Shown here piece by piece: positions 6,353 through 45,587 of a stretch of 62,439 bases of DNA. The stretch comes from a virus. Taxonomy: Duplodnaviria; Caudoviricetes. The notes under the pieces were generated by a model. That model worked only from the letters and a program-made list of their open reading frames with translations, was not told the origin of the DNA and did no database searches. The translations under genes and the position numbers were made by a program. The first letter of the stretch is position 1, and the number at the start of each line of letters is the position of its first letter. The stretch covers positions 1-62,439 of the IMG/VR virus record IMGVR_UViG_3300036801_000157; one strand, written 5' to 3'.

Positions 6353-7242
6353 TATTCAATCCCCACATATTCTGCCTCGCCCTTGCCATCAAGCTTTTCA
6401 AGAATCACTGGGCCTTTCGGCATCGGCCGACGCTTGCCTTTGCGGTCCACCAGTTCATGATCCTCGGCATCGATAAGCTGGCCAAGCATCTCGCGCCGCG
6501 CGACTTCTTCGGAAAACCAAGTCAGTAGTTCTTCGGTGTTTTCATCGAAAAATCCAGGTGATTTGAACGCCTTGTCCTGCGCCGTGCGCGCTTGGGTCTT
6601 GACGATGCGCTTGAAATCAGCATTATTGGATTCGACGACATCGTAAGCGCCGAATGGTCCGCCTTTCTGGCCACGCCAATCGCCGATGCCGACGATCTTG
6701 CCGGCGGCGCCAAAGAGATTCACGACGGTTCGCTCTGTCAGGATGCCTCGGATGTAGCGAAAGGTGATCGTGCCGCACCACTCCGGAAAGATCGGCCGTG
6801 TGCGAACGTCCGGCGTGCGATTCTGGTCAGAATTGCGCACCATTGCGCAATAAATTTCTGGCGTGCCATATAGGTTTACCTGCAATTCTACGATCTTGGT
6901 GAGCCGCTCGATTTTGGCTTTTGCCGTTCCTGGAATGTCGAGCGCGACCGCCGACAATGCGCCGTGAAATGCGCCGGACGGAACGTGAATGAGCGTCTTC
7001 TCTTTCAGATCGCGGTTGACATAAAGCGCGCCTCTGAACTCAGCAGGCGGATCGTGCTTGAGGCTCTGTTCCAGCCCAGCCCGGTTCTGCCTGATGCTTG
7101 GGAACAGCAATTCCCGCCAAGCCTTTGCGGCAAATCTATTCATGATCATCGGAGACGTGCCGAGGAAGTTCATCGTCACTTCGTCGATCTTGATCTCCTG
7201 GATTTCGAGCTGCGCCTCTTCTTTTTTCCTCTTCGGTGCCAT
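6352..7242 (-). CDS. RAMP/Cas7-like RNA-binding protein (putative Vipr-type effector)
   Basis: N-terminal LGTSPMI strand; IHVPSGAFHGAL (cf. RAMP IP.SS.KGAL); Gly-rich loop GIGDWRGQKGGPFG; flanked by arrays; no cas genes in the window. Confidence 0.8.
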   Translation of the reverse strand: MAPKRKKEEAQLEIQEIKIDEVTMNFLGTSPMIMNRFAAKAWRELLFPSIRQNRAGLEQSLKHDPPAEFRGALYVNRDLKEKTLIHVPSGAFHGALSAVALDIPGTAKAKIERLTKIVELQVNLYGTPEIYCAMVRNSDQNRTPDVRTRPIFPEWCGTITFRYIRGILTERTVVNLFGAAGKIVGIGDWRGQKGGPFGAYDVVESNNADFKRIVKTQARTAQDKAFKSPGFFDENTEELLTWFSEEVARREMLGQLIDAEDHELVDRKGKRRPMPKGPVILEKLDGKGEAEYVGIE

Positions 7243-7426: not shown

Positions 7427-7690
7427 CCTTCCAGGTCGGCCTGACCGCGCCTGTCCTAGCCTCACGCGCCCCGCCGCACCGAGACTTACCCAGCGTGCCT
7501 CGCCTGCCAAGCCATGCCGAACCGGACTGTACCCAGCAACACCTGACCACAACATATCACGCCGTGACGAACCCCGCCTGCCTCGCCGCGCCGAACCGAT
7601 CTGTACCTTGTCCTGACGTGCCCAGACGTGCCCGGACATACCAAGCCTGCCCTACAATTCCGAGCAAATGGACGTGCCGCGCCGTGCCTA
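7427..7690 (-). ncRNA. Array 2: 3 full GGY-NN units plus leader-proximal part
   Basis: Delimiters end at 7432 (CCTTCC), 7508, 7582, 7651; 5-nt period; leader 7682-7746. Confidence 0.85.
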
Positions 7691-7755: not shown

Positions 7756-8340
7756 TCATACGCCGGAATTTCTTGAATCGTCAAGCAGCGCATTGACGCG
7801 CTCTGACGCTTGCACAGTATCGTCGAACTGTTCAACCCCCCATTTGCCAGCGCCGATCAGTTTCACAACATAACTGCCGTGCGTAATTTCGATATCTTTT
7901 TCTGGCAGCACCAACCAAACACGATCGTGAATTCTAATATGAACCAACAAAATTTCATCGGCAGATCGCACATGCAAGCCACGCAACGACATCGCCTTTA
8001 ATTGTTGATAATATGGCGCATCTTTCCACACATCAGGATAATCAGGATCAACCGTGCACGTCACACATTGGACTCCATTGAAAACACCAAGACTTAAAAT
8101 CATGTGACTCAATAATGGAAACCATTCATGGCCGACTTTCGGGCTCATCAGCCAGCCACATGCATAGGTGCGACATATCTGCGGACGCGCTTCGTAAATT
8201 CCGCAGCCACCGCAGCCAGGCCGACAGTGCTCGCACCAAACGCCTGCCGGCTTGGATAATTCGGCAACAAATAATAATCGGCAGCATTCGGAACACTTGC
8301 CGCAGGATCGTCCTGGCGCGATTGGCGGGCCACCGTGCAT
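7756..8340 (-). CDS. Cys-cluster protein (YkgJ/CxxCxxCC-like)
   Basis: RSCGKCSECC, WCEHC, CGIYEARPQICRTYAC; start set at TGATG overlap. Confidence 0.75.
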   Translation of the reverse strand: MHGGPPIAPGRSCGKCSECCRLLFVAELSKPAGVWCEHCRPGCGGCGIYEARPQICRTYACGWLMSPKVGHEWFPLLSHMILSLGVFNGVQCVTCTVDPDYPDVWKDAPYYQQLKAMSLRGLHVRSADEILLVHIRIHDRVWLVLPEKDIEITHGSYVVKLIGAGKWGVEQFDDTVQASERVNALLDDSRNSGV

Positions 8341-9716
8341 CACGTTGTCCATATTCCAAACCCGACCGGCGCGGGATAAATAAACGGCGTGCCGGATACG
8401 GTGCCGCCGAAATTGCCGACCATCTGATCGTTGATCGCGCCGCTGGCGCCGCCGAAGCAGACCGCAGGCGCCATCGGCGACGACGCCTGGATGACCACAC
8501 CGCCGATGCCAGTGTTCGGATTCTCGGAACCGAGAACAAGCCCGTTCCAATTGCCGCCGTTCTTACGCAGCCACGCTTTGCGCGCGCCGAGATCGATCGC
8601 AAAGCTGATCACATCGCCAGATGTGCACGCGCCGAGCGTCTTGCCGCTATTAGCGCTGTTGGAAAATATATTTCCTGTCGACCTGTAGAGCGCCGTGCAT
8701 TGAATGCCGCCGACCATATTGTTGAAAGAGCCGGTCGACGAAAGTAGTCCTGGACAATCGGATGCGCCATGCGTCACGGCCATCGTGACTTCGAAATAAT
8801 ACTTGCCTGCCGTTTTCTGCGTTGTGCTGATAGCACCGCCATTGGCGACTGTGCTGGTGCGGGTCACCGATAATTTGCTGGCCGACAGCGAGACCGCAGC
8901 CGCCGTGCCGTCGAATGATGCTGGCTGACCACTGACGACGACTGGTATGTAAAATGCTTCCTGGTCGAACATGACATCGATATCGATTATTTGATTGCCG
9001 CCGAACAACGACAGAAGATAGATGGCGTCAGTGTCTGTTGCTAAGCCGGCGAACAATGTCGCGATAACATCGCTTCGTGCAGCATAGATCGCGTCGCTAT
9101 CAGTCACCAACGAGACGCCGAGCACTGTCGCGCTCGTGCGCGCTGGTGGATAAAACACATCCAGATCATTGACGAAAGGCGCAAACAGGAAATTTCGAAA
9201 CACGATCGGCGCGAACACCGAGTCCGATTCCGTGTGCCGGCCTGGCAGCACAGTCAATGGCGTGCTCAATTCCGGCGCAAACACCATTTCGAAATCTCCG
9301 AACAGGCTTGGTCGCACCGATCCAGGGAGCCCGACGACCGCCGAGAATATCGCGTCATCACTATTATATATGTTTGGCCATACGCTGCCAGGTGCCACCA
9401 CTGGCGCGATGGAAGGCAACGACAGAACGTCACCGTCGAAATAGATCATCGGCGTGACGACCTGATCGCCTTTCAGGATTGGCGCAAACACGAAATCGTC
9501 GGTGATCAGGAATCCAATATTCATAGCTTGTGGAATTATGGCGGCAAAAATAGAATCTAATTCGGATACAAATGGCGACGACAACAATTGAGTGACGGCA
9601 TAATCGAACGCAATGAACGGACCCATAATACCGTCGGCGTCATCGTAATAACGCGTTGGACCAATCACACCGCGAGGCGTGAGCGTTCCGATCTGCGCAA
9701 TGATGCCTGAGATCAT
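8340..9716 (-). CDS. Virion protein with D.D..Y.P repeats and C-terminal SPRY/ConA-like domain
   Basis: GKYYFEV, GDVISFAIDL...KAWLRKNG, NFG...F.YPAP.GF. Confidence 0.7.
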   Translation of the reverse strand: MISGIIAQIGTLTPRGVIGPTRYYDDADGIMGPFIAFDYAVTQLLSSPFVSELDSIFAAIIPQAMNIGFLITDDFVFAPILKGDQVVTPMIYFDGDVLSLPSIAPVVAPGSVWPNIYNSDDAIFSAVVGLPGSVRPSLFGDFEMVFAPELSTPLTVLPGRHTESDSVFAPIVFRNFLFAPFVNDLDVFYPPARTSATVLGVSLVTDSDAIYAARSDVIATLFAGLATDTDAIYLLSLFGGNQIIDIDVMFDQEAFYIPVVVSGQPASFDGTAAAVSLSASKLSVTRTSTVANGGAISTTQKTAGKYYFEVTMAVTHGASDCPGLLSSTGSFNNMVGGIQCTALYRSTGNIFSNSANSGKTLGACTSGDVISFAIDLGARKAWLRKNGGNWNGLVLGSENPNTGIGGVVIQASSPMAPAVCFGGASGAINDQMVGNFGGTVSGTPFIYPAPVGFGIWTT

Positions 9717-15155: not shown

Positions 15156-15611
15156 CTAGCCTACTGCTTCGCCAGTCTCTTCAAGCGTTAGGCTCCATTT
15201 GACCCTGCGGCCGTATTCGTTGATGCTCTGCTGCACGCCAGTCACCATCATCATGAGACGCGGCCGGTAGATCGTGAATGCGCCGACGACGCGCTCTGAG
15301 CCATCAACGACAGGCCGTGATGGCGCGCCACCCACTGTCCGATATACCAGCTCGGCCACACAATCTACAGTGACCTTCATGCCTTGGAACACACCATCGA
15401 ACGCAGGGGCCTCGACATCGCTGCAGGTGATGACGGATTCGTACTTCTTGAATTTATCAACCGCCAGATCGACCAGAAGACCATTCACAGTTCGCCGAGG
15501 TGCCGCCACAGCTTTAATCGGATCGAGCGTCTGATCTAAATTTCTCGCAGAATATAATGGTACGCCATTGGATAAAAGCACCAATAGTGTCTGTTCAGCT
15601 GGGAGACTCAT
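15156..15611 (-). CDS. Putative distal tail protein
   Basis: RRTVNG.L, W.LTLEE motifs; downstream of tape measure; start re-assigned to 15611. Confidence 0.65.
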   Translation of the reverse strand: MSLPAEQTLLVLLSNGVPLYSARNLDQTLDPIKAVAAPRRTVNGLLVDLAVDKFKKYESVITCSDVEAPAFDGVFQGMKVTVDCVAELVYRTVGGAPSRPVVDGSERVVGAFTIYRPRLMMMVTGVQQSINEYGRRVKWSLTLEETGEAVG

Positions 15612-15624
15612 TAATTTTTCCTCT

Positions 15625-15660
15625 CTTGCATTTTCTTCAGAATTATGGCCATATCGGCCG
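15625..15660 (+). promoter_or_regulatory. Putative promoter of array 3
   Basis: CTTGCATT-N14-GGCCA-TATC-GGCCG. Confidence 0.6.
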
Positions 15661-15715
15661 CTTGCTTTCTCGCAATCGGTCCATCGGGCGCTGCGCTTGC
15701 GACACGCTCGATCGA

Positions 15716-15815
15716 CTAGGCATGGCATGGCGAGGCAGGCGTGGTTGGTCTCGGCAGCGTCCGTCTGGGTGCGGTGTACCTAGGCAGAGCGGAGCACGGC
15801 TAGGCTTGGCAGGCA
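15716..15815 (+). ncRNA. Array 3: single-unit GGY-NN mini-array
   Basis: GGCAGG at 15734 and 15808 bracketing 14 pentamers; intergenic, antisense to the tail operon. Confidence 0.8.
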
Positions 15816-16050: not shown

Positions 16051-19000
16051 TTATTTATTCCAGCGGGGCCTGAGTCCAGTGCTCGAAGCTTGCCTCGCGA
16101 TCGCCGCGCGTTCGAGCGCTTTAGCCGTATCCTCCGGCGCAGTCAGGCCCCTGAACGTCTGATCCCCGATCGTAAGATTGATCGTGCGCGTGCTCTGTTG
16201 CGTGCTGTTCGAACCGACTACGATACCGCCGCCGGCAAACCCGGGCAACGTAATCCGAGGCATGAACGATATCTGATTGAATCCGCCATTGCGAAACCCA
16301 TCCAACGGCATTCTCAGATTATTTAAAAGATCGAACAGACCGACGCCGTACTTCTGCACCGCAGCCGCTTTCATCACGAATTCGCCGTTTGACAGCCACG
16401 ATAGTATACTGTCCGACGTTCCGCTGCCGGCACCACTGACAAAGCCGCCCGATGCATGGCTGCCAGCGCTCGACGCAGCTGCTGCCGCCGAGCTGGCCGC
16501 TGCTGCCGCCGAGCGAGCCGCGTCGTTCGCCGAGCTTGCCGCCGCTGCCGCCGAGCTGGCCGCATCGCTAGCCGAATTCGCCGCATCGCTGGCGGCCGTC
16601 GCCGCATCGGTGGCAGCCTGCTGCGCCGTCTGCAATCCTGCCTGGGCGTTGCTCACCGCCTCCGTGATCTGCTCCCCAGCGCTCGTTACCTGACTCAATA
16701 AATCTGTGAATATCGATGAAACCTGCTGTGCCGTGCTCTGCGCCGCGAAGATGATGGCGCTGAAGTCGGGCGGCTGCGGCGGCGGGATGATGATGTTGCT
16801 GAACGCCTGCGCAACCTGCTGCGCCGCCTGCCGGGCGGCGTTGATAATGGCGTTGAAGTCGGGCGAGCCGGAAAACTCCGGATGAATGTTCTGGAACACG
16901 GCTTCGATCTCGTTCGCCGCACTTCGCGCCGCGTCAATGATGTTGTCGAAATTCAGCTTGCCGGAAAACTCAGGCTTGATTTTCTGAAATATCGCCTCGA
17001 CCTCGTTGGCCGCGCTGCGTGCCGCGTCAATGACGCCACTGAAGTCCAGGCCACCCTTGAATTCTGGCTTGATGTCGTTGAAGACGGCCTCGACCTCGTT
17101 GGCCGCGCTTCTGGCCGCATCGATCACACTAGCGAAGTCCAGCCCGCCCCTGAACTCTGGTTTGATGTCGTTGAAAACAGCTTCGATCTCGTTGGCCGCG
17201 CTTCTGGCCGCATCGATCACACTAGCGAAGTCCAGCCCGCCCTTGAACTCAGGCTTGATGTTGTTGAAAACGGCTTCGATCTCGTTCGCCGCGCTTCTCG
17301 CCGCGTCGACGATGCTGTCGAAATTAAGCGACCCAGAGAACTCCGGCTTGATGTTCTGAAATACGGCTTCGATCTCGTTGGCCGCCTTCTCGGCCGCCTG
17401 CACGAGATTCGAAAATTCACCGGCGCCGCTTGGGTCGACATCTGGCTTGATCTTCAATGCGTCATTGATCCCTTTTCCTATCTTCTCGGCCTCAGTCACA
17501 AGCTGCTGGCCGGATTGATTGAGCTCTGCCGCGCCGGCGCTCATGTCGAAAAGCTTGCCGAAGAAGCCCTTGATCCCCTGTAGCGCGTTCTTGATCTTCT
17601 CTAAGAAACTGGTGGTGTCAGGTGGCTCAAGCTTGGGCGCCGGAATAGTTTCCTTGCCAAGAGCTTGTAATTTCTGTTTGTAGGCTGCGATTGCCTTGTC
17701 GGTTTCGGTTGTATCAAATCCAGCCGCCTTCAATTGGATTCGTATGTTCTGCAAGTCTTCGATCTTTCTCCTGATCTCCTCGGCTGTTTCCTTCGCGTCG
17801 CCTTCGAGCGAAACCTTTGGTGAAGCCGTTATATTGTTTAAGGCTTCGATCTCTCTCCCGAGCTCGTCGGCTTCTTGCTTCGCCTCTTTCCCGCCTTCGA
17901 GCGAAACCTTTGGTGAAACCGTTATATTGTTTAACTGCTTGATTTTCTCGGCATATTCATTGAAAGAAATTATTCCAGCTTGCCACATATATCTCAAACG
18001 ATCAGCAGTATTGCCTTCAGGATGCGACGCGTAAAATTCCTTAATTTTTGAGGCATATTGATCAAAAGAAATTATGCCGTCCTGCCACATCTTGAAGATA
18101 TCACCAGAACTGGCAGGCTTGATCTGGTTCAATTCCTGAAGCTTACTCTTGTATTGATCTACGCCAATTATGCCGTCCTGCCACATTTGCCTGAGTCCAG
18201 CCGCCGTGGCCTGCAACGCGCTGGTATCAGGCGACGGAAGCTTGATCGGGATTTGCAGCTTTTGATTGGCATCGTTGAATTTCTGAAGTACCGCATCGAT
18301 TGCCTTGTTGGCTTCCGTCGGGTCGCCGCCGATCTTTATTATATTGTCTCGCTTGCTTATGAGATTGATCAGCTCGTCGCCCAGCGCGCTGATTTGCCGC
18401 CTGGCCTCCTCAACGCCTTTAGCGCCGAGCGTGATTTCGGCCTTCTGGGCGGTGATCCTTTCCAGTTGGCCTTGTAAATCGGCAAGCTCTTTTTTGGCGT
18501 CAGTCGTATCTGCGCCGATCTTTACTTTCGCATCTATCTTGGTCGTAACTTCGGCTATCTTGCTTTTGATTTCGCTGGCTCTTTGATCGAGAGCCGCGAG
18601 GTCGGCGTCGACTTTAATTTGAAGATGCGTCTTGTTGACTTCGTCGGCAAACGCCTTCAGATCGGCCTTGATTTGCTCGAATGGCTTTTGCTTGGCAAGA
18701 CCGCTCAATATGATCCCAAACGCGCGGACCTGTTCTGTCGCAGTCAAGGAGGAAAGACCAGTCTCCTTGACAGCAGCGGCCGCAGCCTGAATATTCTTTA
18801 CATCTTCAACTGGGATTTTGAACGCTTGGCTGATCAAAGCTGGATCAACACCTTGTAATGCGCCCACTAAATCTGTAATAGCCTTTTGAACATTGCCGCC
18901 ACTTTTCACTATCTCGTCAAGCGCCACACGCGCAGCCGCGATCTTGCTGGTGCCTTCCGTCATTGAATCGAATGTGATGCCTTTGATGCCGTTGACGACA

Positions 19001-20709
19001 TCCTCCATCTTTTTGACAAGCGTCGACATGTCATTCGCTACAGCGGTCGCCGCCGCAGATGATTTTCCAGCGAGATCGTCAAAGGCTTGCTTTGCAGGCG
19101 TTGTCGCCTCAGCAAGCTGGCGTATGACATCCTGAAGCTTCTGGTAATTTTCGACGGATTGTTTCGGGCCGCCCAGTTGCTCCGCCTTCTGTTCGGCCTC
19201 CAGCCAATTCTTGGTCGCCTCCAAGGCGGCGATGTGCGATTTGGCGACTTGATCGCCCATCGCAGCTACTTTTGCGCTATTGGCTTCGAGATTGCCCAAC
19301 GCCGCAACGTAGCCTGCAGCGCTCCCGCCTGCAGCGATGAAAGCATCCTGCTGCTTGCGAAGGGCATCCGTCGTTTGCCCGGTAGCGTCAGCGAGGCTTT
19401 TCAGGGCGATTTCATTCTCGCGGATTTTGTCGATCCATCCCGAGATCGCCGAGACGACACCAGTTATGACAGGTATTAAAAGGCTGATGCCTGCGCTGAA
19501 CCCGGCGAGCGCAAGGCTGAGCGGCGCGAACGCCGCGGCTACCCCATTGGCCGCAGTTGCGATCGCGCCGATCTTCCCAGGAATTCCACCGGCGACACCG
19601 GCGAGATTGTTGAGGCCCGAAAGAGCGGTCGTCGCGCCCGTCGCAAAAGTCGATAACGCCGGCCCGACCTGCTGCAGGCTCGTCGCCACTTGCGTGAAGC
19701 CTTGCTGCGTCGCCGTAGCCGATTGCGTCACGGTCGTCAGGGCGCCTGATACGGTCTTGCCCGCGTCCGCCACCGTCGTCATCGCGCTGGCGACCGTCGT
19801 TCCGGTTTCGCCGAACTTACCGACCGTGCCAGCAGCGGTCGTGAGTTTGTCGGTCAGACCGCTGATCGCCGTCGCAGCGCCGCCGGTGACATCGGCGACC
19901 TTGCCGATGGCGCCGGACGCGTTCCCGACAGCATCACCGACCTTACTGACCCCATCAGCAGCTTTTTGACCTACGTCAACGACTTTCCCAAGTCCATCAG
20001 CGGCCTTGCTGCCGGCATCGCTGGCTTTGCCTAGTCCATCCGCGGCCTTGCCAGTCCCATCGGCGATCTTCCCGACGCCCTCGCCGGCTTTCGCCCCGGC
20101 ATCGGCGATCTTGCCGAGTCCATCCGCGGCCTTGCCGCCCGCCTCCCCGATCTTGCCGAGAGCTTCTGTCGCCTTGTTTCCGCCATCGGCGATCTTGCCA
20201 AGATTGTCGGACGCCTTGCCAGCCGCCTCGCCGGCCTTGTCTAATCCACTCGATGCCTTATCGGTCCCTTCCCCAATCTTCGAAACGCTGTCGCCAACCT
20301 TGCCGGCAGCATCGCCTATCTTCCCAATGCCTTCGCCAGCCTTAGAGGCCGACTCGCCTATCTTTGAAATACCGTCACTGGCCTTCGAGACAGAATCACC
20401 GACCTTTGAAATGTCGTCGCCGGCCTTCGAGGCCGCATCGCCAATCTTCGTAATGCCTTCCCCAGCCCCGCCGAGCGTCGAGAGCTTTTCGCCGATCCCG
20501 GAGGCCGCCTCGCCGATCTTGCCGATCTGTTCGGCCGCCTGCGCTGCCGCCTCGCCGGCCTTCTCAAGACCAGTGCCGCCGCCCTCGCCAGCCTTTTCAA
20601 TCTGCTGCGACGCCTCGTCCGCGGCATCGCCGACAGCCTTGAACTGCTGGGCAGCCTCGTCGGCGCCAGTTGTTGTTATAGTGATTTTCTGAACGACATC
20701 ATCGGCCAT
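16051..20709 (-). CDS. Tail tape measure protein
   Basis: 1552 aa Ala/Gly-rich; C-terminal HASGGFVSG.G.GTSDSI..WLSNGEFV motif; position. Confidence 0.9.
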   Translation of the reverse strand: MADDVVQKITITTTGADEAAQQFKAVGDAADEASQQIEKAGEGGGTGLEKAGEAAAQAAEQIGKIGEAASGIGEKLSTLGGAGEGITKIGDAASKAGDDISKVGDSVSKASDGISKIGESASKAGEGIGKIGDAAGKVGDSVSKIGEGTDKASSGLDKAGEAAGKASDNLGKIADGGNKATEALGKIGEAGGKAADGLGKIADAGAKAGEGVGKIADGTGKAADGLGKASDAGSKAADGLGKVVDVGQKAADGVSKVGDAVGNASGAIGKVADVTGGAATAISGLTDKLTTAAGTVGKFGETGTTVASAMTTVADAGKTVSGALTTVTQSATATQQGFTQVATSLQQVGPALSTFATGATTALSGLNNLAGVAGGIPGKIGAIATAANGVAAAFAPLSLALAGFSAGISLLIPVITGVVSAISGWIDKIRENEIALKSLADATGQTTDALRKQQDAFIAAGGSAAGYVAALGNLEANSAKVAAMGDQVAKSHIAALEATKNWLEAEQKAEQLGGPKQSVENYQKLQDVIRQLAEATTPAKQAFDDLAGKSSAAATAVANDMSTLVKKMEDVVNGIKGITFDSMTEGTSKIAAARVALDEIVKSGGNVQKAITDLVGALQGVDPALISQAFKIPVEDVKNIQAAAAAVKETGLSSLTATEQVRAFGIILSGLAKQKPFEQIKADLKAFADEVNKTHLQIKVDADLAALDQRASEIKSKIAEVTTKIDAKVKIGADTTDAKKELADLQGQLERITAQKAEITLGAKGVEEARRQISALGDELINLISKRDNIIKIGGDPTEANKAIDAVLQKFNDANQKLQIPIKLPSPDTSALQATAAGLRQMWQDGIIGVDQYKSKLQELNQIKPASSGDIFKMWQDGIISFDQYASKIKEFYASHPEGNTADRLRYMWQAGIISFNEYAEKIKQLNNITVSPKVSLEGGKEAKQEADELGREIEALNNITASPKVSLEGDAKETAEEIRRKIEDLQNIRIQLKAAGFDTTETDKAIAAYKQKLQALGKETIPAPKLEPPDTTSFLEKIKNALQGIKGFFGKLFDMSAGAAELNQSGQQLVTEAEKIGKGINDALKIKPDVDPSGAGEFSNLVQAAEKAANEIEAVFQNIKPEFSGSLNFDSIVDAARSAANEIEAVFNNIKPEFKGGLDFASVIDAARSAANEIEAVFNDIKPEFRGGLDFASVIDAARSAANEVEAVFNDIKPEFKGGLDFSGVIDAARSAANEVEAIFQKIKPEFSGKLNFDNIIDAARSAANEIEAVFQNIHPEFSGSPDFNAIINAARQAAQQVAQAFSNIIIPPPQPPDFSAIIFAAQSTAQQVSSIFTDLLSQVTSAGEQITEAVSNAQAGLQTAQQAATDAATAASDAANSASDAASSAAAAASSANDAARSAAAAASSAAAAASSAGSHASGGFVSGAGSGTSDSILSWLSNGEFVMKAAAVQKYGVGLFDLLNNLRMPLDGFRNGGFNQISFMPRITLPGFAGGGIVVGSNSTQQSTRTINLTIGDQTFRGLTAPEDTAKALERAAIARQASSTGLRPRWNK
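16860..17420 (-). repeat. 93-bp (31-aa) tandem coding repeats in tape measure
   Basis: AARSAANEIEAVF.DIKPEF.G.LDF repeated about 6 times. Confidence 0.85.
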
Positions 20710-38204: not shown

Positions 38205-40919
38205 TCACTGCCCCGTCTGCGATCTTCGCTGCAATGATGTCAACGGCGCCTGCTTCGCACCTCGCGCCTTGCCAGGTGCCTTCGCCTTGGGTGCGGCTTT
38301 TGCCTTCTTCGGCTTCGGAGCTGCCTTAGCCTTCGGAGCCGCTTTCGGCTTCGGACCTTTCTTTGGCTTGGGCCCAGCCTTGGCCTTGCCGCCTCCTTTG
38401 GCACCCTTACCACCACCGCCACCTTTGCCGCCGCCCGATCCCTTGCCTTGGCCTTGACCCTGGCCTTGACCCTGGCCCTTCTGCGGCTTGTCTCCCTTGG
38501 CTGCGGCCTTCGCCTCTTTCGCAGCCTTCGCAGCGTCCGCCTTCGCGGCCTGCGCGTCCGCGCGCGCCTGCTTGGCATCAGCCTTGTCCTTCGCGCTGGC
38601 GTCTTTCGCAGCCGCCTTCTCCTCGGCCTTCTGCGCTTTCGCCTCGGCCTTGGCAGCCTTGTCCGCAGCCTTAGCCTCAGCCTTGGCGGCCTTGGCCTCC
38701 GCACGCGCCTGCTTGGCCTCGTCTTGAGCGTTTTGCTTTTGGTTCGCCTTCAAATCCTTGTCAGCCGCCTTGGCCTCGGCGGCAGCCGCCTTCGCCTCGG
38801 CCTTGTCCGCCCGATCCTTGGCGGCCGCAGCCTGCTTGTCGGCCTTCGCCTGCGCGGCCGTCTTGTTCGCCTCAGCCTTCGCGGCCTCCTTTGCAGCGGC
38901 CGCCTCGGCCTTTGCCTTGTTGGCCTCGTCACGCGCCGCCTTGGCCGCGTCCTTGTCCGCCTGCTTGGCGTCTTTCGCCGCCGCCTTGGCCTCAGCCGCC
39001 TTGGCCTTTTCCTCAGCCGCGTCGGCCTTGTCTTGCGCCCTGTCCGCTTCCTTGTCGGCCTTCGCCTGCGCCTTTTCCGCTGCAGTTGCCTCTTTCGCCT
39101 TGCCTGCCTCGGCCTTCGCAGCCTCCTTTGCCGCAGCCGCCTCGGCCTTTGCCTTGTCAGGCTCTTTCGTAGGCTTCTCGGCGGCCTTGCCCTTCTCAGG
39201 TGTCTTCTCAGCCGACTTATCAGGCTTCTTGGATTTCTCGGGCTTACTGGCACCACCACCGGGAGACGAGGCAAACAGGCCAGCGGGCCCGTGATTCGGA
39301 TTGAAGTCGGCAACGACGCCACGGGCGTCGCCCGCACCCTTGCCACCTGGGAACGTGCTCTTGCGCATGTTCGGCGGAAGCTGCCCAGTCTGCCCTGGCT
39401 GCGGCGGTGGCGGCCCGCCAGGCATGCCACCAGGCCCGGGTGGCGCTACCGGCGGCGGCGCATTCGGATCGAACGGCGCGGTATGCTGGCCAGGGCCAAA
39501 CAGCGTTCCAACCGGCGCCGGCTGCGGCGTGTTCTGTTCCTCGATCGTGTCGCCTTCCATGGCCGCGTCGTCGAGCGCCTTCTCAAAGCCAGGATAAACG
39601 CCGTCCTCGATCAACTGATTGGCACGCCCATTGGCCAATGCCACCGGCGGTAATTGCGCGGCATTCACGTCGATCTGGTACGCCTGCGCTTTCTTGAGCG
39701 CGATGTCGGCCTTGTCGCCATCCGACAATTGCCACAGCGAATTCCATTCGTACCAGACCTCGGGCGGACGCGTACCGAGCGCCGAGCGGATCAGCACCTC
39801 GTCGAGCGCCGTCATCGCAGGAGTCAACGTAACCGTCTGCTCCGAGGACAGCCGATCGTAATAGTTCCTGAAATCAGCCTCTCCAGTCACATTCAATCCG
39901 CGATGCGGCAATCCGAGAAATCTGCCAGCCGGAATATCCACCGCGCCGGAAGCGATCTGTAAATATGTCGAAAGCACCTGTGGCGCAGCCGTTAGATTGG
40001 CCTCGACGCGCTGCCATTTCTCGTTGCCATCGATCAGCACTGTGTTGATGACGCTCTTGGCGGCATTCGCGGCCTGGAAGCGAGCGATCATCTTGCGCTC
40101 GCCTTCCTTGGTCGACAGAATGCTCTTCAATTCAGGAACGCTGATGATGTCGACCTTCATTTCGGCTACCAGCGTCGCCAGCGAGCCGGAAACCAGCGAG
40201 CACATTTTCACAGCATCGCTCACCGCTTGCAGAACGCTGTCGCCCCAGACCGTGTTTAATAATTGATCGGCAGTGTCCATGCCGATCAGCTTGATCACCC
40301 GCGAAGGGTGCAGCCTCACCTGCGTCTTGGAAAAATTCGGATCAGATGGATCGTTGGTCTGGAATGATCTATCGACCGGACGGTTCTGCGCTTCGTAATA
40401 TTCAGGCTGCCCGTAATATCTCGACGAAATGTCGTAAATAACCGGTCCCATGCTGATCTGATTGCGCGAGACGACGTGCAAGAACTTCAGCGAATCCTTG
40501 GTGACATCATCGTAATTAAGCTCCTCCTCGGGATCGCCGGCATCGACTCCGATGATGATCGCCGAGCCGCCATAAAGCCGCGCCTTGATCAGAGCTTGCT
40601 GAACCTTCTTCTGTAACAATAATTTCTTTTCGGTCGCCTCCAGCAATTGAATCTGATCCGGATCGGCCTGCCAATTCCGCCATTGTCGCGTCATGTCGAA
40701 AGCGGGAACATCAACCGCTTTCCTACTAATCCAATCGCCGCGATAACTAAATTCCAATTCCTGCGTCGTCAATAATGCGAATGTGTAGGCCTGCGACATG
40801 AATTTGTCGCGGCCAGGAACGCCAAGACCAGCGAGCAAATTAATATAACCGTCAGACCACCGGACGGCCTCCGTCGGCGGCATGCTTACAACATTGTCTT
40901 GCGCATCAGTCATGATCAC
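38205..40919 (-). CDS. Portal protein (DUF1073 type) with long Lys/Ala-rich C-terminal tail
   Basis: Y..DW..RK.VD.PA.DM.R.W, ARLYGGS, HPSRV, IP..R.LG, GEAD..NYYD, W..LW. Confidence 0.9.
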   Translation of the reverse strand: MIMTDAQDNVVSMPPTEAVRWSDGYINLLAGLGVPGRDKFMSQAYTFALLTTQELEFSYRGDWISRKAVDVPAFDMTRQWRNWQADPDQIQLLEATEKKLLLQKKVQQALIKARLYGGSAIIIGVDAGDPEEELNYDDVTKDSLKFLHVVSRNQISMGPVIYDISSRYYGQPEYYEAQNRPVDRSFQTNDPSDPNFSKTQVRLHPSRVIKLIGMDTADQLLNTVWGDSVLQAVSDAVKMCSLVSGSLATLVAEMKVDIISVPELKSILSTKEGERKMIARFQAANAAKSVINTVLIDGNEKWQRVEANLTAAPQVLSTYLQIASGAVDIPAGRFLGLPHRGLNVTGEADFRNYYDRLSSEQTVTLTPAMTALDEVLIRSALGTRPPEVWYEWNSLWQLSDGDKADIALKKAQAYQIDVNAAQLPPVALANGRANQLIEDGVYPGFEKALDDAAMEGDTIEEQNTPQPAPVGTLFGPGQHTAPFDPNAPPPVAPPGPGGMPGGPPPPQPGQTGQLPPNMRKSTFPGGKGAGDARGVVADFNPNHGPAGLFASSPGGGASKPEKSKKPDKSAEKTPEKGKAAEKPTKEPDKAKAEAAAAKEAAKAEAGKAKEATAAEKAQAKADKEADRAQDKADAAEEKAKAAEAKAAAKDAKQADKDAAKAARDEANKAKAEAAAAKEAAKAEANKTAAQAKADKQAAAAKDRADKAEAKAAAAEAKAADKDLKANQKQNAQDEAKQARAEAKAAKAEAKAADKAAKAEAKAQKAEEKAAAKDASAKDKADAKQARADAQAAKADAAKAAKEAKAAAKGDKPQKGQGQGQGQGQGKGSGGGKGGGGGKGAKGGGKAKAGPKPKKGPKPKAAPKAKAAPKPKKAKAAPKAKAPGKARGAKQAPLTSLQRRSQTGQ

Positions 40920-40920
40920 C

Positions 40921-40955
40921 CTTGCATTAATCTGACAAATAGGCCACTTTGGCCG
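40921..40955 (+). promoter_or_regulatory. Putative promoter of array 4
   Basis: CTTGCATT-N13-GGCCA-CTTT-GGCCG. Confidence 0.6.
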
Positions 40956-41016
40956 TGCGGCGTCGAGCGTTCTCGGCGCGGTCGCCCGGTAGCGTTAAAC
41001 CGGGAATTGATCGAGG

Positions 41017-41366
41017 GGCACGGTTCGGACAGGCGAGAACGAGGCGCGGCCAGACAGCGCTCGATAATCTTTGGCAGGAGCGGCTAGACCGGACGGGGCG
41101 AGGCTGGGCATGGCGCGTTCGGGCAAAGCGCAGCGTGGCAAGGCAGGCGTGGTTGGGTTGGACATGGTGCGGCATGGACTGGCGGGGTCAGGCGGGGCTT
41201 GGCCTGGCAGGCCAGGCACGTCGGGCGCAGCGAGTCTAGTGCAGGCAAGGCACGGCGCGGCGAGGCATGTCGCGGCAGGGATTGGCATGGCAGGCGCGGT
41301 CCGGTGCGGCTGAGCAGGACGTGGCTGGGCGCGGTGCGGATTTGCCCGGCAACGCAAGGCCGGCAG
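41017..41366 (+). ncRNA. Array 4: 4 full GGY-NN units plus leader-proximal part
   Basis: GGCAGG at 41073, 41142, 41206, 41289, final GGCAG 41362; leader 40956-41024 resembles leaders of arrays 1 and 2. Confidence 0.85.
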
Positions 41367-41373
41367 AATGTTT

Positions 41374-41407
41374 GGTGGCGGTCGTCCTTCGGGGCGGCCG
41401 TCATTTT
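41374..41407 (+). terminator. cUUCGg hairpin terminator after array 4
   Basis: GGCGGTCGTCC-TTCG-GGGCGGCCGTC then ATTTT. Confidence 0.75.
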
Positions 41408-43233
41408 CAACGCATCCTGCGCGCACGAATAAATCCAGTCGCGGTCGTAGTCGGCCCTAGCCCCACAAGATAAATCGTGGTGGCGACGTTGACGTTGAAA
41501 CGGCACACACCCGTCGGCATCGACATCGCCGCCTTGCCGAAATTCATCGAGAGATCATTCATGGCGCCGACGCCGGTCGCGAGCTGCGCCGCGGTCGGCA
41601 ACACGGCCGACGCATTGCTGATCGCAACGGCCATTCGCGTCGCGGCTGATGCTGGCGCGACGAAGCTCACCACACCGGAAACATCCCAATCGCCAGGACT
41701 CAGCAGAAGAGAGCCGATATTCGCAGCAATGCCGCTAGTGAGATTGACGGCCGTCGTAACCGAGGTCGAGAGAACCTCCCCAATTTTGCCAGCCGCCGCA
41801 TTGTCGGCCGCAATGGTGCCATTAGCAGCCGCCCGTGACGTATCGGTCGGATGGACATGATCGCCGCGCGACCATGCAGTTGCGACCCCAGTTGCAGCCG
41901 TCCCGTTCATGGTCGGGATGGCGTTCGAGGCGCCCGGCGTCAGCGGCACAAAAATCAAATTGTCGGTGCCTAACGTGGCCGTGTTATTCGGGTTTGCCGA
42001 AACCGCAACCGGACCAGGCGGGCCAGGAATGCCCTGCGCGCCGGATGTACCCTGTGTGCCGGCCACGCCCTGGGTGCCCTGTAGACCAGCTACGCCAGCC
42101 ACGCCGGCCGGCCCCTGTGGTCCCATTGGACCCATCGCGCCAGCGGCACCTTCTGGTCCCTGTAATCCTGCCGGTCCAGCAGCGCCCTGTTGCCCAATGA
42201 CCCGAACACCGAACAACACATTCGGCTTGTTGCCGCTAAGCGGCGTCGTCCCCTGCTTGACGAACGTCACTGCGAAAGAAACATAGGTGGTATTGTCGAC
42301 TGGCGGTCCGTTCAGCGTATAGACGGCATAGCAAGTCGAGTCGTTCGCCGCCTGGACGAAAACCTCGTCCCCTGCATTCGCCAAAAGCAATTGCAAGCGC
42401 TCGTCGACACCGTTCTGGTCAAGCGAGGCCACCCAGATTTGCGTGTTGCTCGGAGCATCCGCCCCATCAGTGCGGATCATTCCGTTGCCAGGCGGCGGCG
42501 TGGCAGCCGAGGCATACGCCCATGGCCACAAGCTGGTCGACGTGCCCGGCGAGCCCTGCGGTCCTTGTGGCCCGATTACGCCGGGATCACCTTGAGGCCC
42601 CGGCATGCCCTGTAGCCCGCTCGTACCGTCCTGGCCGGCGGCACCAGCCGGTCCTTGATCTCCTTGAAGCCCTTGGGGGCCTTCTAATCCCTGTGGCCCC
42701 TCAGCCCCGTCTTGCCCGGCCGGCCCTTGTGGACCTTGAGAGCCCTGGGGCCCGAGGTCGCCTTGCGGACCTGGAACACCCGGCGCGCCGTCAACGCCGG
42801 CAACGCCCGGCGGACCGACGGGCCCAGCCGGCCCTGGATCACCTTGTGGACCGGCCGGCCCAGGTGGCCCGACGCCACCAGCGCTGCCTACCGCGGTCCA
42901 ATCCGCATTCTGGCGCCCGTAAATCGTGCCGTCCGTCGGCGCCTCGGCAATGCCGCCACCGCCATCGGTCGGCACCGTCGGACTGCTGCCATCCTGCGAA
43001 AACACCGCATCCGCGCGCCCGCGCATGAGGACGCCTTCATTGATCAGTGCCTGCTGGAACGAAGCCATGATCGGGTCGTCGAGGTCGACCCAATTGAGCG
43101 CTATCGCTTGATCCCAGCGCCGCATGATGTTGCCGCCGACAAACTGCACGCCGCGCATGCGATGACGGAACAACGAAAATTCAGCGTCGGTGAACCTGCT
43201 CGTCCAATCCGTGAATGTGAGGTATGCTCCCAT
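41407..43233 (-). CDS. Collagen-like fibre protein
   Basis: Two long Gly-X-Y tracts; [19 protein letters not shown]-terminal GDWDV...IRARR.R. Confidence 0.85.
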
Positions 43234-43244
43234 TGTTCTCCAGC

Positions 43245-45587
43245 TCAATCCGCTCCAATCCAGCCAAGATCGAGATCGTAATTGCGAGCGCGATCATCGA
43301 AGCATTTCCATGCAAGACCAAGGGCCATACAGCAATCGTCAAAAAGTCCAGGAGGAGCCGCATAGCGAATACCAAGGCGAGTCCATTCGTATTCCATGGA
43401 TAGCAGCTCGATGCTGATCGGCCCCTCGGGAAACCGCACCTTGCGCTCGTGGATCGCCAACCCGAGCCCTTCCATCAGCCCCTGCTTGGACGCCTGCGTG
43501 AACCTGAAACCTTCGAGCCGCGGACAACTCAGCTCGATCACCTCGGCGCGGTTCGATCCGCTGCGCACCGGCAGCTTGATGGCTTCGACTATCGGATCAC
43601 CGACACCAGTCTCATCCACCAAAGCAGGCGTGTTGCCCACGTATTTCTTGATAATGTCCACTGTGACATGCCAAGGCCGCTGGAAGCGCAACGCTTCGCA
43701 GACGTGGCCATCCTCATCAAGGCCGATGCCGACCGTATAATCCACCTTTCTCGCCAGGTCCCAGCCCCATGCCACCGCGGGCCGCTCGCTCAATGGCGCA
43801 AAACATGCCCTGATATGCTGGGCACCGAACGGATTGCCCTCGTCGTCGCTCGGCTCGGCGAGATAAAGCTCCTTGAAGACATGCTCTGGCAGCATCGCCT
43901 TCGCCGATCTGATCTCCTCATCTGCGAGCACGCCAGCAGCAACCGCATCCCATGCCGTTATCTTGTGGTAACCGAAATTCGGCATGCCTTGCTCGGCCAA
44001 ACGCGCCAATTGGAAAAACCAGTTTTGGCGTCCCTTGACATTTCCGATTATGCGGATCGGACCGCGCGTCGCCGTCAGTGTCGAGCGGATGGCATGAAAT
44101 GCCTCTTCACGACATCTGCTCGCTTCGTCCACTACGCAGGCATAGACATCTTCACCGTAAAGTGAATTACCAGACCAGCAAGGCTTTCCGTTGCGCCTGA
44201 CAAGAATGCATGTATTCGGAACCGAAACACAATGCACCGTACCATCATATGAGCGGCCCTCATAAAATGGACCGGCCTTCGTTGAACTAAGACATCGCGA
44301 TGTCAATTCCGAAAACATAACTCGATAGAGTGGAGCGCGCTGCATAATGTCGCGTCCATCCTTCAATTTGCCGGATGACATCTCCGGATTTGGATGTTTG
44401 ACGCCGATAATCGCGCTATAGCCGCACTTGAGAGCGATTTCCTGAATATCGTCCGCTAGCCGTTTACTAGCTGTCCAGATGACTTCAATATGCCCACGAC
44501 GGATGCAACCATCACCCATGGCGAGCCACACCAGCAATGTGCGCAGCTTATCCGGTGGAAGCTGCTTCACTGCACATGGAATATATTTTTTATATTTGTC
44601 GCCCAACACAACAAGATAAGACCAAAGTTCCTTGTCCCATATTTTTAATCCGGCCGAATATTCTTTCGTCTTGTGCCCTAATCTTGCAAGCACTTCGCCA
44701 AACGCTTCTCGAACTTCGCCCTTCTCGCCACCCTTGATCCCAGCCGTTTGTGCAAAATGAATGCGATAACCGTTGCGCGCCACGAGCGCTGCAGCTTTCT
44801 CAATTGTGCTGGCATTGCCAAGAGCCGAACCTTCAGCCAAATAGAAACCTAAAAATGCGCAAAAATCATGCGTCATGACATCGTTGTCAAAGCCATCCCA
44901 TCGAGAGTGCATTGGAATCGTATCATACGCCTTTAGCTCACTCGCTGGCACCCACATTTCAACTGATCTCGGCTTGGCACGCCTACCTGGACCGAGCCGA
45001 GATGCTCCACGCTTGCGCTGCACAATCTGCCGATGATTTGGTGTCACCAACAAATCGATCTTGTTCGCCCGAATGGCGACCATTTCGCCATTATAAGGCT
45101 GATGAATGATACGCGTTGGTCGTTGCCATTCAGCCACCCCACCAGGTGATCGCGTCATCACATCGTCCGTAGTGAGAACATCTGCAAAATACTTCCACCC
45201 ATCCAGAGTAAGCACCTCTGTCTCACTGTCATAACAGTCAGGCCGATCAGAGCCGCGAAATGCAATCACCGCGCCATTGATCATAGTCAGCGTATGATCG
45301 GTAAGGTGGGTGGTGAAAACCGATCTCCCATCCTGATCGAGAAAATGCTGACGCATCCGATTGAAGGCAATGCGAGCCTGCAATGTGACCGGCGCAACCC
45401 ACCAAAAATTCTGTCCTGGCCCGCCCTTGAGCGCCTGCTCGTACAGCCAAATGATGGCGCTCACCGTCTTGCCAGATTTAGCGCTCGCCTCGATCAGCGA
45501 AATGCGCGCCGGATCGAACATGGCCGCGCGCTGCTTTTCATACAGCGGCGGCCGCTTGTAGATGATCTCGTGCGCCTGCTCGCTCAT
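43245..45587 (-). CDS. terL: Terminase large subunit containing an intein
   Basis: ASAKSGKT Walker A, VVDEA Walker B, GWDLA..VDYT, DETGVG, DDCCMAL. Confidence 0.92.
44166..45236 (-). mobile_element. Intein (357 aa) with LAGLIDADG endonuclease
   Basis: Starts [10 protein letters not shown], block [14 protein letters not shown] and MGDG motifs, ends VHCVSV...RRNGK..WSGN followed by Ser. Confidence 0.9.

What the first reader, a model, noticed from the sequence alone, without database searches (positions are those of the whole stretch)
40921..41407. Array 4 targets homologs of both flanking genes (portal and collagen fibre)
Seen: unit 41073-41141 NN = GC TA CG GG GA TG AT GC CG AA GC GT AA = A-Y-R-G-D-W-I-A-R-K-A-V-N versus portal SYRGDWISRKAVD (40710-40748; 9/13 pairs). 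Unit 41289-41361 reverse complement = F-F-G-K-A-A-Q-T-L-Q-A-G-A versus fibre [13 protein letters not shown] (41506-41544; 6/13 pairs, 17/26 nt). The two middle units have no convincing match here.
Basis: partly seen in the sequence, partly recalled or inferred. Interest (0 to 1): 0.85.

Follow-up and report, generated by a model that had tools for sequence, protein, structure and literature searches.

The report
Phage VIPR guide array against rival portals
This stretch of a soil phage encodes guide RNAs of the recently described VIPR system, and one guide matches the portal gene of closely related rival phages while the phage's own portal copy is recoded to escape it.

Summary
The array at 41073-41361 (+ strand) is real. 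It holds four head-to-tail units of GGY/NN pentamers, each opening with GGCA GGN, and ends in a hairpin plus U-tract.

It fits the VIPR system described in 2026 bioRxiv preprints. In that system a Vipr protein (a RAMP, the CRISPR-type RNA-binding fold) binds the GGY triplets. The NN dinucleotides then read double-stranded DNA, skipping every third base. The phage carries a Vipr homologue (6352-7242, minus strand), an accessory gene and three more arrays.

**Portal half of the claim: correct and sharpened.**
- Unit 1 matches the phage's own portal at only 9 of 13 dinucleotides.
- It matches 12 of 12 (24 of 24 nt) in three other viral contigs, always at the portal motif AYRGDWIARKAV, with different wobble bases in each.
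- It matches 11 of 13 in two further relatives.
- Two of the three exact-match records, and the four other relatives checked, show no Vipr; three are complete or nearly so.
- The own portal carries Ser AGT (twice) and Arg AGG where 14 related allele rows (12 distinct sequences) have GCN and CGC.

**Fibre half: chance.** The match is 17 of 26 nt, which every shuffle equals, and 80 fibre alleles do no better.

**Units 2-4:** no target found.

This is a new member of a known kind. Its notable trait is that guides sit beside the gene whose foreign alleles they target.

The parts
40921..41072 (+). Leader of array 4, possibly holding its promoter; begins just past the portal start codon on the opposite strand
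   Evidence: The first ~46 aligned columns share CTTGCATT and a GGCCA...TGGCCG hairpin with the leader of array 3. The sigma-70 consensus scan found no promoter, so the start of transcription is inferred, not shown.
41073..41141 (+). vrRNA unit 1: GGCA plus 13 pentamers; guide NN = GC TA CG GG GA TG AT GC CG AA GC GT (AA)
   Evidence: The first 12 NN match 24/24 nt in three viral contigs at the portal motif AYRGDWIARKAV. Only 7 of 13 triplets are canonical GGY.
41142..41205 (+). vrRNA unit 2 (12 pentamers, 10 of them canonical GGY); target unknown
   Evidence: No exact match to an 11-NN pattern in viral, metagenome or genome collections. No above-shuffle match in relatives.
41206..41288 (+). 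vrRNA unit 3 (one phase break near its 5' end, 83 nt); target unknown
   Evidence: No exact match to a 12-NN pattern in viral or genome collections. Nothing above shuffles.
   Evidence: The own-fibre match of 17/26 is at shuffle level. No better match in 80 fibre alleles. No exact match to a 12-NN pattern in viral or metagenome collections.
41375..41410 (+). Terminator-like hairpin (13-bp stem, UUCG loop) followed by CAUUUUCA
   Evidence: -24.6 kcal/mol, z -2.6. The other three arrays end the same way on their G-rich strand. It fell below the consensus scan's T-run rule.
40711..40748 (-). Own portal site homologous to the unit-1 target (SYRGDWISRKAVD); mismatched at positions 1, 8, 9 and 13
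   Evidence: 9/13 dinucleotides overall. First 12 NN: 19/24 nt (79%) and 9/12 (75%), below the published 80% cut-off.
38205..40919 (-). Portal gene (904-aa ORF; likely start ATG at 40913)
   Evidence: PF06381 E 8.9e-91, phrog_146
41407..43248 (-). Collagen-like tail fibre gene (not shown to be a target)
   Evidence: PF01391 and tail-fibre PHROGs
6352..7242 (-). vipr: RAMP-fold protein that would bind the GGY triplets of all four arrays
   Evidence: A family profile hits PDB 36pp_D 'SUSP1 Vipr protein' at E 1e-7. The AF2 model (pLDDT 81) matches Csm3/Cas7 RAMPs, Foldseek E 5e-6, probability 1.0.
5867..6352 (-). Candidate vap (accessory gene), 161 aa
   Evidence: A homologue lies directly downstream of vipr in 71 of 80 related loci. 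No Pfam family; phrog_15946, function unknown.
4641..5806 (-). Array 1, about 16 units, downstream of vap
   Evidence: terminator
7441..7651 (-). Array 2, 3 units, upstream of vipr
   Evidence: terminator
15734..15807 (+). Array 3, one full unit, distant from the vipr locus, antisense between two structural genes
   Evidence: Its guide matches 22/24 nt in the G002 homologue of the flanking ORF 15156..15728.

Best explanation
Array 4 is a satellite guide-RNA array of this phage's own VIPR system.

**Proposed mechanism (steps marked shown or inferred)**
1. It would be transcribed from the + strand, antisense to the flanking late genes, and end at the hairpin at 41375-41410. Transcription is inferred, not shown.
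2. It would be cut or read as four head-to-tail units that each start GGCA GGN. This is the 'staggered' layout with a one-base phase step. Processing is inferred.
3. Vipr protomers from gene 6352-7242 would coat each unit, one per pentamer, holding the GGY bases and exposing the NN pairs. This follows from the published SUSP1 structures and from conserved contact residues. It was not tested for this protein.
4. The NN pairs would read double-stranded DNA with every third base skipped, so they track codon positions 1-2. The rule is published; the match to it is shown here.

**What unit 1 targets**
- Unit 1 is aimed at the conserved portal motif AYRGDWIARKAV of closely related phages; those checked show no Vipr.
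- Binding there would block portal transcription, and so head assembly, of a co-infecting or resident rival. This consequence is inferred from published repression assays.
- The phage's own portal is spared because three codons in the site are recoded at positions 1-2: Ala to Ser AGT (twice) and Arg CGC to AGG.

**What remains open**
- Units 2-4 are built the same way, but their targets are not in the collections searched.
- The fibre is not shown to be a target.
For: **A complete VIPR system is present**
- A profile of the P0002 family hits the solved SUSP1 Vipr chain at E 1e-7, over the RPIF..W and G.GDWR motifs.
- By that alignment, SUSP1 R138, D177, W178 and R179 correspond to P0002 R149, D188, W189 and R190. 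The structure preprint says these residues hold GGY. R149, W189 and R190 are invariant and D188 is at least 90% conserved among 60 homologues.
- The AF2 model (pLDDT 81) has Csm3/Cas7 RAMPs as its top Foldseek hits (E 5e-6, probability 1.0).
- Of the best 80 of 320 related viral loci, 74 carry GGY-periodic arrays on the vipr strand.
- 71 of those 80 have the P0001 homologue next door.
- GGCAGG-to-GGCAGG spacings are 4 mod 5 in 440 of 712 cases.

**The array has the right anatomy**
- Units have 12-14 pentamers, inside the published range of 9-16.
- A hairpin with a U-tract lies on the G-rich strand for all four arrays.

**The target of unit 1**
- Exact 12-NN pattern: 3 viral contigs, all at the same portal site, with different wobble bases.
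- Three equally specific patterns from units 2-4 gave 0 hits in the same collection, so chance hits are not expected.
- With 200 shuffles of the first 12 NN, none reached more than 20 of 24 nt, against 24 of 24 observed.
- Match by allele: 12/13 in L009, L119 and L120; 11/13 in L010 and L011; 10/13 in L020; 6-7/13 in eight more distant alleles; 9/13 in the phage's own portal.
- No Vipr was found in two of the three exact-match records (G001 and G007) or in the four other relatives checked (G002-G005). G002 and G007 are rated 100% complete and G005 92%. In the third exact-match record (G006, 66% complete) the search found no Vipr either, but the record is incomplete.

**Self-sparing**
- Only the window's allele has AGT..AGT AGG where the 14 other allele rows have GCN..GCN CGC (12 distinct sequences, because L010/L011 and L012/L018 are identical at the site).
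- Against the 91%-identical L009 portal, codons 57-62 and 65-72 are identical even at wobble positions, while codons 63-64 are replaced.
- Across the four guide sites with targets at 80% or more, 7 of 8 conserved Leu/Ser/Arg codons have switched six-fold family. Outside those sites the figure is 78 of 345 (Fisher p 2.5e-4).
Against: - There is no expression evidence. No RNA run holds the stretch, and no sigma-70-like promoter was found.
- Only 7 of 13 triplets in unit 1 are canonical GGY, so the array could be decaying.
- Three of the four units have no target.
- The staggered layout is the one array type the preprint did not confirm by small-RNA sequencing.
- Units here lack the long structured 3' tail of the characterised type II vrRNAs.
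- The own portal, at 19 of 24 nt (79%), sits only just under the published 80% cut-off, so some self-binding is not excluded.
- The codon-switch test is conditioned on sites already chosen because own and target alleles differ, which inflates it.
- In one search, 43 of 487 thirteen-codon windows of the portal show as many position-1/2 differences as the guide site. The first Ala/Ser change lies at the edge of a variable stretch.
Confidence: 0.82

Rival explanations
1. Self-regulation: the array's RNA, loaded on Vipr, binds the phage's own portal gene through the partial 9/13 match, or acts simply as an antisense transcript over the portal start. Either way it would time or damp late-gene expression rather than attack rivals.
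For: The array lies directly upstream of, and antisense to, its own portal start. The own site is the best hit in the window. At 19/24 nt it is close to the published 80% cut-off.
Against: Foreign alleles match far better: 24/24 against 19/24. The own mismatches include two adjacent internal positions (8 and 9). The preprint found no self hit at 80% or more for any guide set it examined. The same own-lower-than-foreign pattern recurs for arrays 1, 2 and 3.
Confidence: 0.06
2. Relic array: array 4 is a decaying or silent copy, moved by recombination away from the vipr locus. The portal match then records a past function only.
For: Degenerate GGY triplets in unit 1 (7 of 13 canonical) and a phase break in unit 3. 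No promoter was found. Three units have no target.
Against: All 24 guide bases of unit 1 still match live portal alleles exactly, which drift would erode. The leader motif is shared with array 3 and a stable terminator is kept. The preprint reports that internal degeneracy is frequent in working vrRNAs.
Confidence: 0.1
3. Chance: the portal resemblance is a coincidence among many units and many genome positions.
For: Within the window alone, the 9/13 match reaches only p of about 0.01 per unit, and about 21-25 units could have been inspected.
Against: Three independent exact 24-nt gapped matches all fall at the homologous portal codons. Three control patterns gave 0 hits. 0 of 200 shuffles came near the observed score.
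Confidence: 0.01

Closest known systems
VIPR (Viral Interference Programmable Repeat) systems: Vipr RAMP protein, Vap and GGY/NN vrRNAs (bioRxiv 10.64898/2026.04.26.720920; Results, Discussion and three Methods sections read)
   Same: - Pentamer repeats with conserved GGY and variable NN.
- A Vipr homologue and a small accessory gene between two arrays.
- Targets that obey the one-base-skip rule, with the skipped base at the codon wobble position.
- Targets on rival phages; no self hit at 80% or more.
- A phage-borne system.
   Different: - The Vipr here is 296 aa, against 202 aa for the solved SUSP1 chain, with an extra C-terminal part (residues ~205-296).
- About 24 units, against four vrRNAs in SUSP1.
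- Units abut with a GGCA step and no long pseudoknotted tail.
- Two of the arrays lie 8 kb and 34 kb from vipr, inside the structural-gene block.
- The type (I-VII) could not be assigned, because the figures and supplements that define the types were not available.
Staggered vrRNA arrays (legend of Fig. S18 of the same preprint; passage seen)
   Same: One unit's end is the next unit's start, with a one-base overlap. Here units are 5n+4 nt long, both in the window (69, 64, 84, 89, 104 nt and so on) and in 440 of 712 spacings in related loci.
   Different: I could not see the figure or which Vipr clade it came from. The preprint says only the other two non-standard layouts were confirmed by small-RNA sequencing.
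Solo/orphan vrRNAs on phages and satellites (bioRxiv 10.64898/2026.10.15.759431; abstract and section 8 read)
   Same: vrRNAs sit away from any vipr gene. Their self-match scores are lower than their scores against rivals, which avoids autoimmunity.
   Different: The described solo vrRNAs sit in VIPR-null Enterobacteriaceae phages, at the deleted vipr-vap locus, or in satellites. They target vipr, other vrRNAs or satellites. Here the distant arrays are in a phage that keeps its VIPR, lie among structural genes, and target the foreign allele of the adjacent structural gene.
CRISPR arrays with class 1 Cas7 (RAMP) backbones
   Same: A RAMP-fold protein polymerises on a guide RNA (Foldseek hits to Csm3/Cmr4/Cas7), and arrays hold many guides against mobile elements.
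   Different: There are no repeat-spacer units, no cas1/cas2 and no contiguous pairing. The guide information is spread over every pentamer.

Membership tests
VIPR system | A Vipr protein: a minimal RAMP (RRM core, G-loop, thumb) related to the characterised SUSP1 Vipr | tested here: met
   The profile of 60 homologues hits PDB 36pp_D 'SUSP1 Vipr protein' at E 1e-7 over RPIF..W and G.GDWR. The AF2 model (pLDDT 81.4) has Csm3/Cas7 chains as top Foldseek hits at E 5e-6. The counterparts of R138, D177, W178 and R179 are conserved.
VIPR system | vrRNA region of 9-16 tandem YNNGG/GGYNN pentamers with conserved GGY and variable NN | tested here: met
   Array 4 units have 12-14 pentamers. Canonical GGY counts are 7/13, 10/12 and 9/14 in units 1, 2 and 4. 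The same periodicity is seen in 74 of 80 related vipr loci.
VIPR system | An accessory vap gene next to vipr | tested here: met
   The P0001 homologue lies directly downstream of vipr in 71 of 80 loci. Its function and vap class are unknown.
VIPR system | Natural target obeying the one-base-skip rule at 80% NN match or more on another mobile element, with no such hit on the own genome | tested here: met
   Unit 1 reaches 24/24 in three viral contigs and 19/24 on the own portal. Under skips of 0 and 2 the best hits in the window were 18/26; the full-length hit under skip 3 is the array matching itself. Not met for units 2-4, for which no target was found.
VIPR system | vrRNAs are expressed, processed and bound by Vipr | not testable with these tools
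   No RNA run holds the stretch. Only terminator-like hairpins and a shared leader motif speak for transcription.
VIPR system | Invariable structured 3' tail after the repeat tract (type II vrRNAs) | tested here: not met
   Units abut directly. The only constant element is GGCA GGC(G) at each junction. This fits the 'staggered' layout the preprint describes for other types, so it argues against type II, not against VIPR.
VIPR system | Binding represses transcription of the target | not testable with these tools
   Known only from the published SUSP1 and P. fulva assays.
CRISPR-Cas | Repeat-spacer array and adaptation genes (cas1/cas2) | tested here: not met
   The repeat finder and TRF show no repeat-spacer array in the window. 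Rfam gave 0 hits. The locus has only vipr and vap between the arrays.

The most novel reading that the evidence does not exclude
Guides and immunity are inherited as linked modules. Each array sits next to the gene whose foreign alleles it targets, and the resident copy of that gene is recoded at codon positions 1-2.

**What the calls show**
- The recoding is often through synonymous Arg CGN/AGR, Leu CTN/TTR and Ser TCN/AGY switches.
- The main cassette (4622-7755) is an insertion between two convergent genes. These genes lie 117 bp apart in VIPR-less relatives.
- The cassette's edge guides target exactly those two genes' 'empty-site' alleles: A1u16 at 23/24 and A2u2 at 20/24.
- Arrays 3 and 4 do the same for a structural gene (22/24) and for the portal (24/24).

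**What would follow**
- Recombination with a rival could not easily separate a guide from its resistant allele.
- That would be a poison-antidote or homing-like logic that could drive both the guide and the flanking allele through a phage population.
- It might also hint that new guides are generated from neighbouring sequence.
Probability: 0.4. Interest if true: 0.72.

Novelty: new member of a known kind. Interest (0 to 1): 0.5.

Why it matters
It is a clean natural example of the VIPR gapped code working against an essential structural gene, the portal, of sibling phages. Three wobble-variant alleles are all matched perfectly, which is exactly the benefit the skip rule was proposed to give.

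It also shows how the carrier avoids killing itself. The amino acids with six codons are switched to the other codon family, and two Ala codons are changed to Ser, inside the guide footprint.

The placement of guides beside their own immune allele, in four separate arrays of one genome, is not mentioned in the parts of the three VIPR preprints I read. It gives a testable idea about how guide sets are kept and spread. The clade, with 320 related viral contigs, uses the staggered array layout that the first preprint did not confirm by small-RNA sequencing.

Tried and rejected
**Ideas held before the literature search and then dropped** (from my own knowledge, not from any call): binding sites for a TRAP-like ring protein, G-quadruplex RNA, and Rho loading sites on the C-rich strand. 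None explains the codon-phased matches to portal alleles.

**Searches with no result**
- Rfam at gathering thresholds: 0 hits in the window.
- Single-sequence AF2 of P0002 failed (pLDDT 33). It was repeated with a 60-sequence alignment.
- Full 13-NN pattern of unit 1: 0 hits in viral contigs. Dropping the 13th NN, which lies in the junction, gave 3 hits.
- Exact gapped patterns for the other units, all 0 hits:
  - unit 2 in viral, metagenome and genome collections;
  - unit 3 in viral and genome collections;
  - unit 4 in viral and metagenome collections.
- These collection scans allow no mismatch, so targets at 80-95% NN identity would be missed.
- The mismatch-tolerant scans covered only the window, five whole related records, 8 portal loci, 80 fibre loci and 2 further loci.

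**Fibre hypothesis.** Own site 17/26, with all 100 shuffles at least as good. The best of 80 fibre alleles was 18/26, p 0.95.

**Reverse test.** 131 unique guides parsed from 80 related VIPR loci were scanned against the window. None reached 20/24, the same as shuffled controls. No evidence was therefore found that other VIPR phages target this one.

**Other blanks**
- The L009 ORF that occupies the place of array 4 is not matched by units 2-4.
- No RNA holder was listed for 40600-41700. Only two DNA soil-metagenome runs appeared, one of them possibly the source.
- P0001 against the PDB gave nothing meaningful.
- Supplementary files of the preprints (data S3 target lists, type tables, figures) were not available. 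They may already list this clade, portal targets or distant arrays.
- In the main text of the first preprint, 'portal', 'orphan' and 'distal' each occur 0 times.
Full report
**1. What is at the coordinates**

The stretch 40921-41407 lies between two minus-strand genes. One is the portal (38205..40919; PF06381, E 8.9e-91). The other is a collagen-like tail fibre (41407..43248; PF01391 and tail-fibre PHROGs).

On the + strand it carries a G-rich tract with a strict 5-nt period. Cutting the tract at each GGCAGG gives four units that open GGCA GGN and continue as GGY-NN pentamers:
- 41073-41141 (69 nt)
- 41142-41205 (64 nt)
- 41206-41288 (83 nt, one phase break)
- 41289-41361 (73 nt)

A 13-bp hairpin followed by CAUUUUCA comes next (-24.6 kcal/mol, z -2.6).

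Three more arrays of the same kind lie at 4641-5806 and 7441-7651 (G-rich on the minus strand) and at 15734-15807 (+ strand). Each ends in a hairpin with a U-tract on its G-rich strand. Rfam has no match. The window is a whole IMG/VR virus record, rated 83% complete.

**2. What kind of thing it is**

A literature search found the bioRxiv preprint 10.64898/2026.04.26.720920. I read its Results, Discussion and three Methods sections. It describes VIPR systems:
- Vipr is a small RAMP (the CRISPR-type RNA-binding fold); Vap is an accessory protein.
- vrRNAs consist of 9-16 YNNGG repeats.
- The NN pairs read double-stranded DNA with one base skipped per repeat.
- The skipped base usually falls on the codon wobble position, on either strand, with no PAM-like flanking motif.
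- Natural targets were called at 80% NN match or more, and no self hits passed that cut-off.

A companion preprint (10.64898/2026.04.26.720927; abstract and one section read) shows one Vipr protomer per repeat. R138, D177, W178 and R179 hold the GGY bases. A later preprint (10.64898/2026.10.15.759431; abstract and section 8 read) describes solo vrRNAs whose self-match is lower than their match to rivals.

**3. The phage has the protein parts**
- ORF 6352..7242 (P0002, 296 aa) has no Pfam family but has 697 homologues.
- A profile of 60 of them hits the solved 'SUSP1 Vipr protein' (PDB 36pp_D) at E 1e-7, across RPIF..W and G.GDWR.
- The four GGY-contact residues correspond to R149, D188, W189 and R190. 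R149, W189 and R190 are invariant and D188 is at least 90% conserved in the alignment.
- An alignment-based AF2 model (pLDDT 81.4) has Csm3/Cas7 RAMPs as its top Foldseek hits (E 5e-6, probability 1.0).
- The next ORF (5867..6352, P0001) has a homologue directly downstream of vipr in 71 of 80 related viral loci.
- 74 of those 80 loci carry GGY-periodic arrays on the vipr strand.
- GGCAGG spacings are 4 mod 5 in 440 of 712 cases. This fits the 'staggered arrays' with a one-base overlap named in the legend of Fig. S18.

**4. The portal claim**

*In the window alone.* Under the one-base-skip rule the best hit of unit 1 in the window is the portal site 40711-40748: 20/26 nt and 9/13 dinucleotides. 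NN-order shuffles reached that in 4 of 300 (nt) and 3 of 300 (dinucleotides). That is suggestive only.

*In relatives.* Thirteen related portal loci were fetched. The homologous site matched as follows:

| Allele | Dinucleotides matched |
|---|---|
| L009 (portal about 90% identical: 91% best segment) | 12/13 |
| L010, L011 | 11/13 |
| L020 | 10/13 |
| Eight more distant alleles | 6-7/13 |

*Exact search.* The 13th NN lies in the junction. Dropping it, the exact 24-base gapped pattern finds three viral contigs: the L009 contig, L119 and L120. All three hits are at AYRGDWIARKAV in a portal gene, each with different wobble bases.

*Controls.* Equally specific patterns from units 2-4 found nothing in the same collection. 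None of 200 shuffles exceeded 20/24.

*Do the targeted phages carry VIPR?* No Vipr homologue was found in G001-G007. G002 and G007 are rated 100% complete, G005 92%, and the others 16-83%. The delimiter motif occurs there only at control frequency.

**5. Self-sparing**
- The own portal reads AGT TAT CGC GGC GAT TGG ATT AGT AGG AAA GCG GTT GAT.
- The 14 other allele rows tabulated (12 distinct sequences, since L010/L011 and L012/L018 are identical at the site) all have GCN at the second Ala position and CGC at the following Arg.
- Against L009, codons 57-62 and 65-72 are identical even at wobble positions, while codons 63-64 are fully replaced.
- The own site scores 19/24 nt (79%) and 9/12 dinucleotides (75%), just under the published cut-off.
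- Caveat: the first Ala/Ser change sits at the edge of a variable stretch, and 43 of 487 thirteen-codon windows have as many position-1/2 differences.

**6. The same pattern in the other arrays**

Using the first 12 NN of 21 units against the window and five whole related records, four units reach 80% or more:

| Unit | Best match | Where |
|---|---|---|
| A4u1 | 24/24 | G001 |
| A1u16 | 23/24 | G002/G003 |
| A3u1 | 22/24 | G002 |
| A2u2 | 20/24 | G002/G003 |

The other 17 units do not reach 80%.

Each target lies in the homologue of a gene that flanks the array in the window:
- ORF 4070..4621 next to the last unit of array 1;
- ORF 7756..8550 next to array 2;
- ORF 15156..15728 next to array 3;
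- the portal next to array 4.

In G002 the homologues of ORF 7756 and ORF 4070 are convergent and 117 bp apart. The 3.1-kb VIPR cassette is therefore an insertion between them.

At the own homologous sites, amino acids are often kept but codon families are switched:
- Arg CGN to AGA at two positions in ORF 4070.
- In ORF 15156: Leu CTC to TTA at two positions, Ser AGC to TCT, and Arg CGC to AGA.

Overall, 7 of 8 conserved Leu/Ser/Arg codons inside guide sites have switched, against 78 of 345 outside (Fisher one-sided p 2.5e-4). This test is conditioned on sites where own and target alleles already differ, so it overstates the effect. AGR makes up 19% of Arg codons in the phage's long ORFs.

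**7. The fibre claim and the middle units**
- The fibre match is real as arithmetic (17/26, 6/13 at 41507-41544), but all 100 shuffles do as well.
- With the first 12 NN it is 17/24 against a shuffle mean of 17.5.
- Eighty fibre-allele loci gave at best 18/26 (p 0.95).
- Units 2, 3 and 4 have no exact target in the viral, metagenome or genome collections, as far as each was searched.
- They have no above-shuffle match in any fetched relative.
- In L009 the place of array 4 is taken by an ORF of roughly 160-190 aa, and that ORF is not matched either.

**8. Verdict**

- Array 4 is a distant, staggered vrRNA array of a complete phage VIPR system.
- Its first unit is a guide against the conserved AYRGDWIARKAV site of rival portals.
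- The resident portal is recoded.
- The fibre claim is chance.

Expression, processing and repression are inferred from the published systems and not shown here. No RNA data exist for this soil phage, and no consensus promoter was found.

The system is known, so the novelty is that of a new member. The placement of guides beside their own immune allele, and the codon-family switching, are the points worth following up.

Noticed in passing
window 4622-7755: The main VIPR cassette (array 2, vipr, vap, array 1) is an insertion between two convergent genes that lie 117 bp apart in the VIPR-less relatives G002 and G003. The cassette's edge guides target those genes' foreign alleles: A1u16 at 23/24 on the C-terminus of the ORF 4070..4621 homologue, and A2u2 at 20/24 on the ORF 7756..8550 homologue.
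   Followed up: yes
window 15734-15807 and 15529-15563: Array 3 has a single unit, antisense between two structural genes (gap 322 bp here, 100 bp in G002). It matches the G002 allele of flanking ORF 15156..15728 at 22/24. The own allele keeps the peptide VPLYSAR.LDQT but switches four Leu/Ser/Arg codon families (17/24).
   Followed up: yes
window 6093-6139: Array 1 unit 2 matches the phage's own vap gene at 24/32 nt over 16 NN (0 of 100 shuffles as good). Over the first 12 NN it is only 18/24 (p 0.07). It may be a guide against foreign vap alleles; no better allele was looked for.
   Followed up: partly
window 38205-39550 (portal residues ~460-904): The portal ORF carries a C-terminal extension of about 440 residues, rich in Ala/Lys/Glu/Asp, ending in Gly/Lys/Pro repeats. 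L009 has a similar but longer tail (971 aa). Its function is unknown.
   Followed up: no
window 5807-5866 and 7652-7755 (minus strand): The leaders of arrays 1 and 2 share a conserved block (GGCGCG.G.CG.T.CTCGCG..GG.C..CCGCA.CTATGAAGCGG.AAA). It differs from the leader type shared by arrays 3 and 4 (CTTGCATT plus a GGCCA..TGGCCG hairpin). The phage thus has two classes of array entry sequence.
   Followed up: partly
L009 954-1532: In the closest relative, the fibre-portal gap holds a protein-coding ORF of up to 192 aa instead of array 4. The array and this gene are therefore alternative occupants of the same site.
   Followed up: partly
window 16886-17397: Tandem repeats of 93/186 nt (about 2.8-4.6 copies, 75-81% matches) lie inside the 1552-aa minus-strand ORF 16051..20709. 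A repeated protein module in a tape-measure-like gene is my guess, not tested.
   Followed up: no
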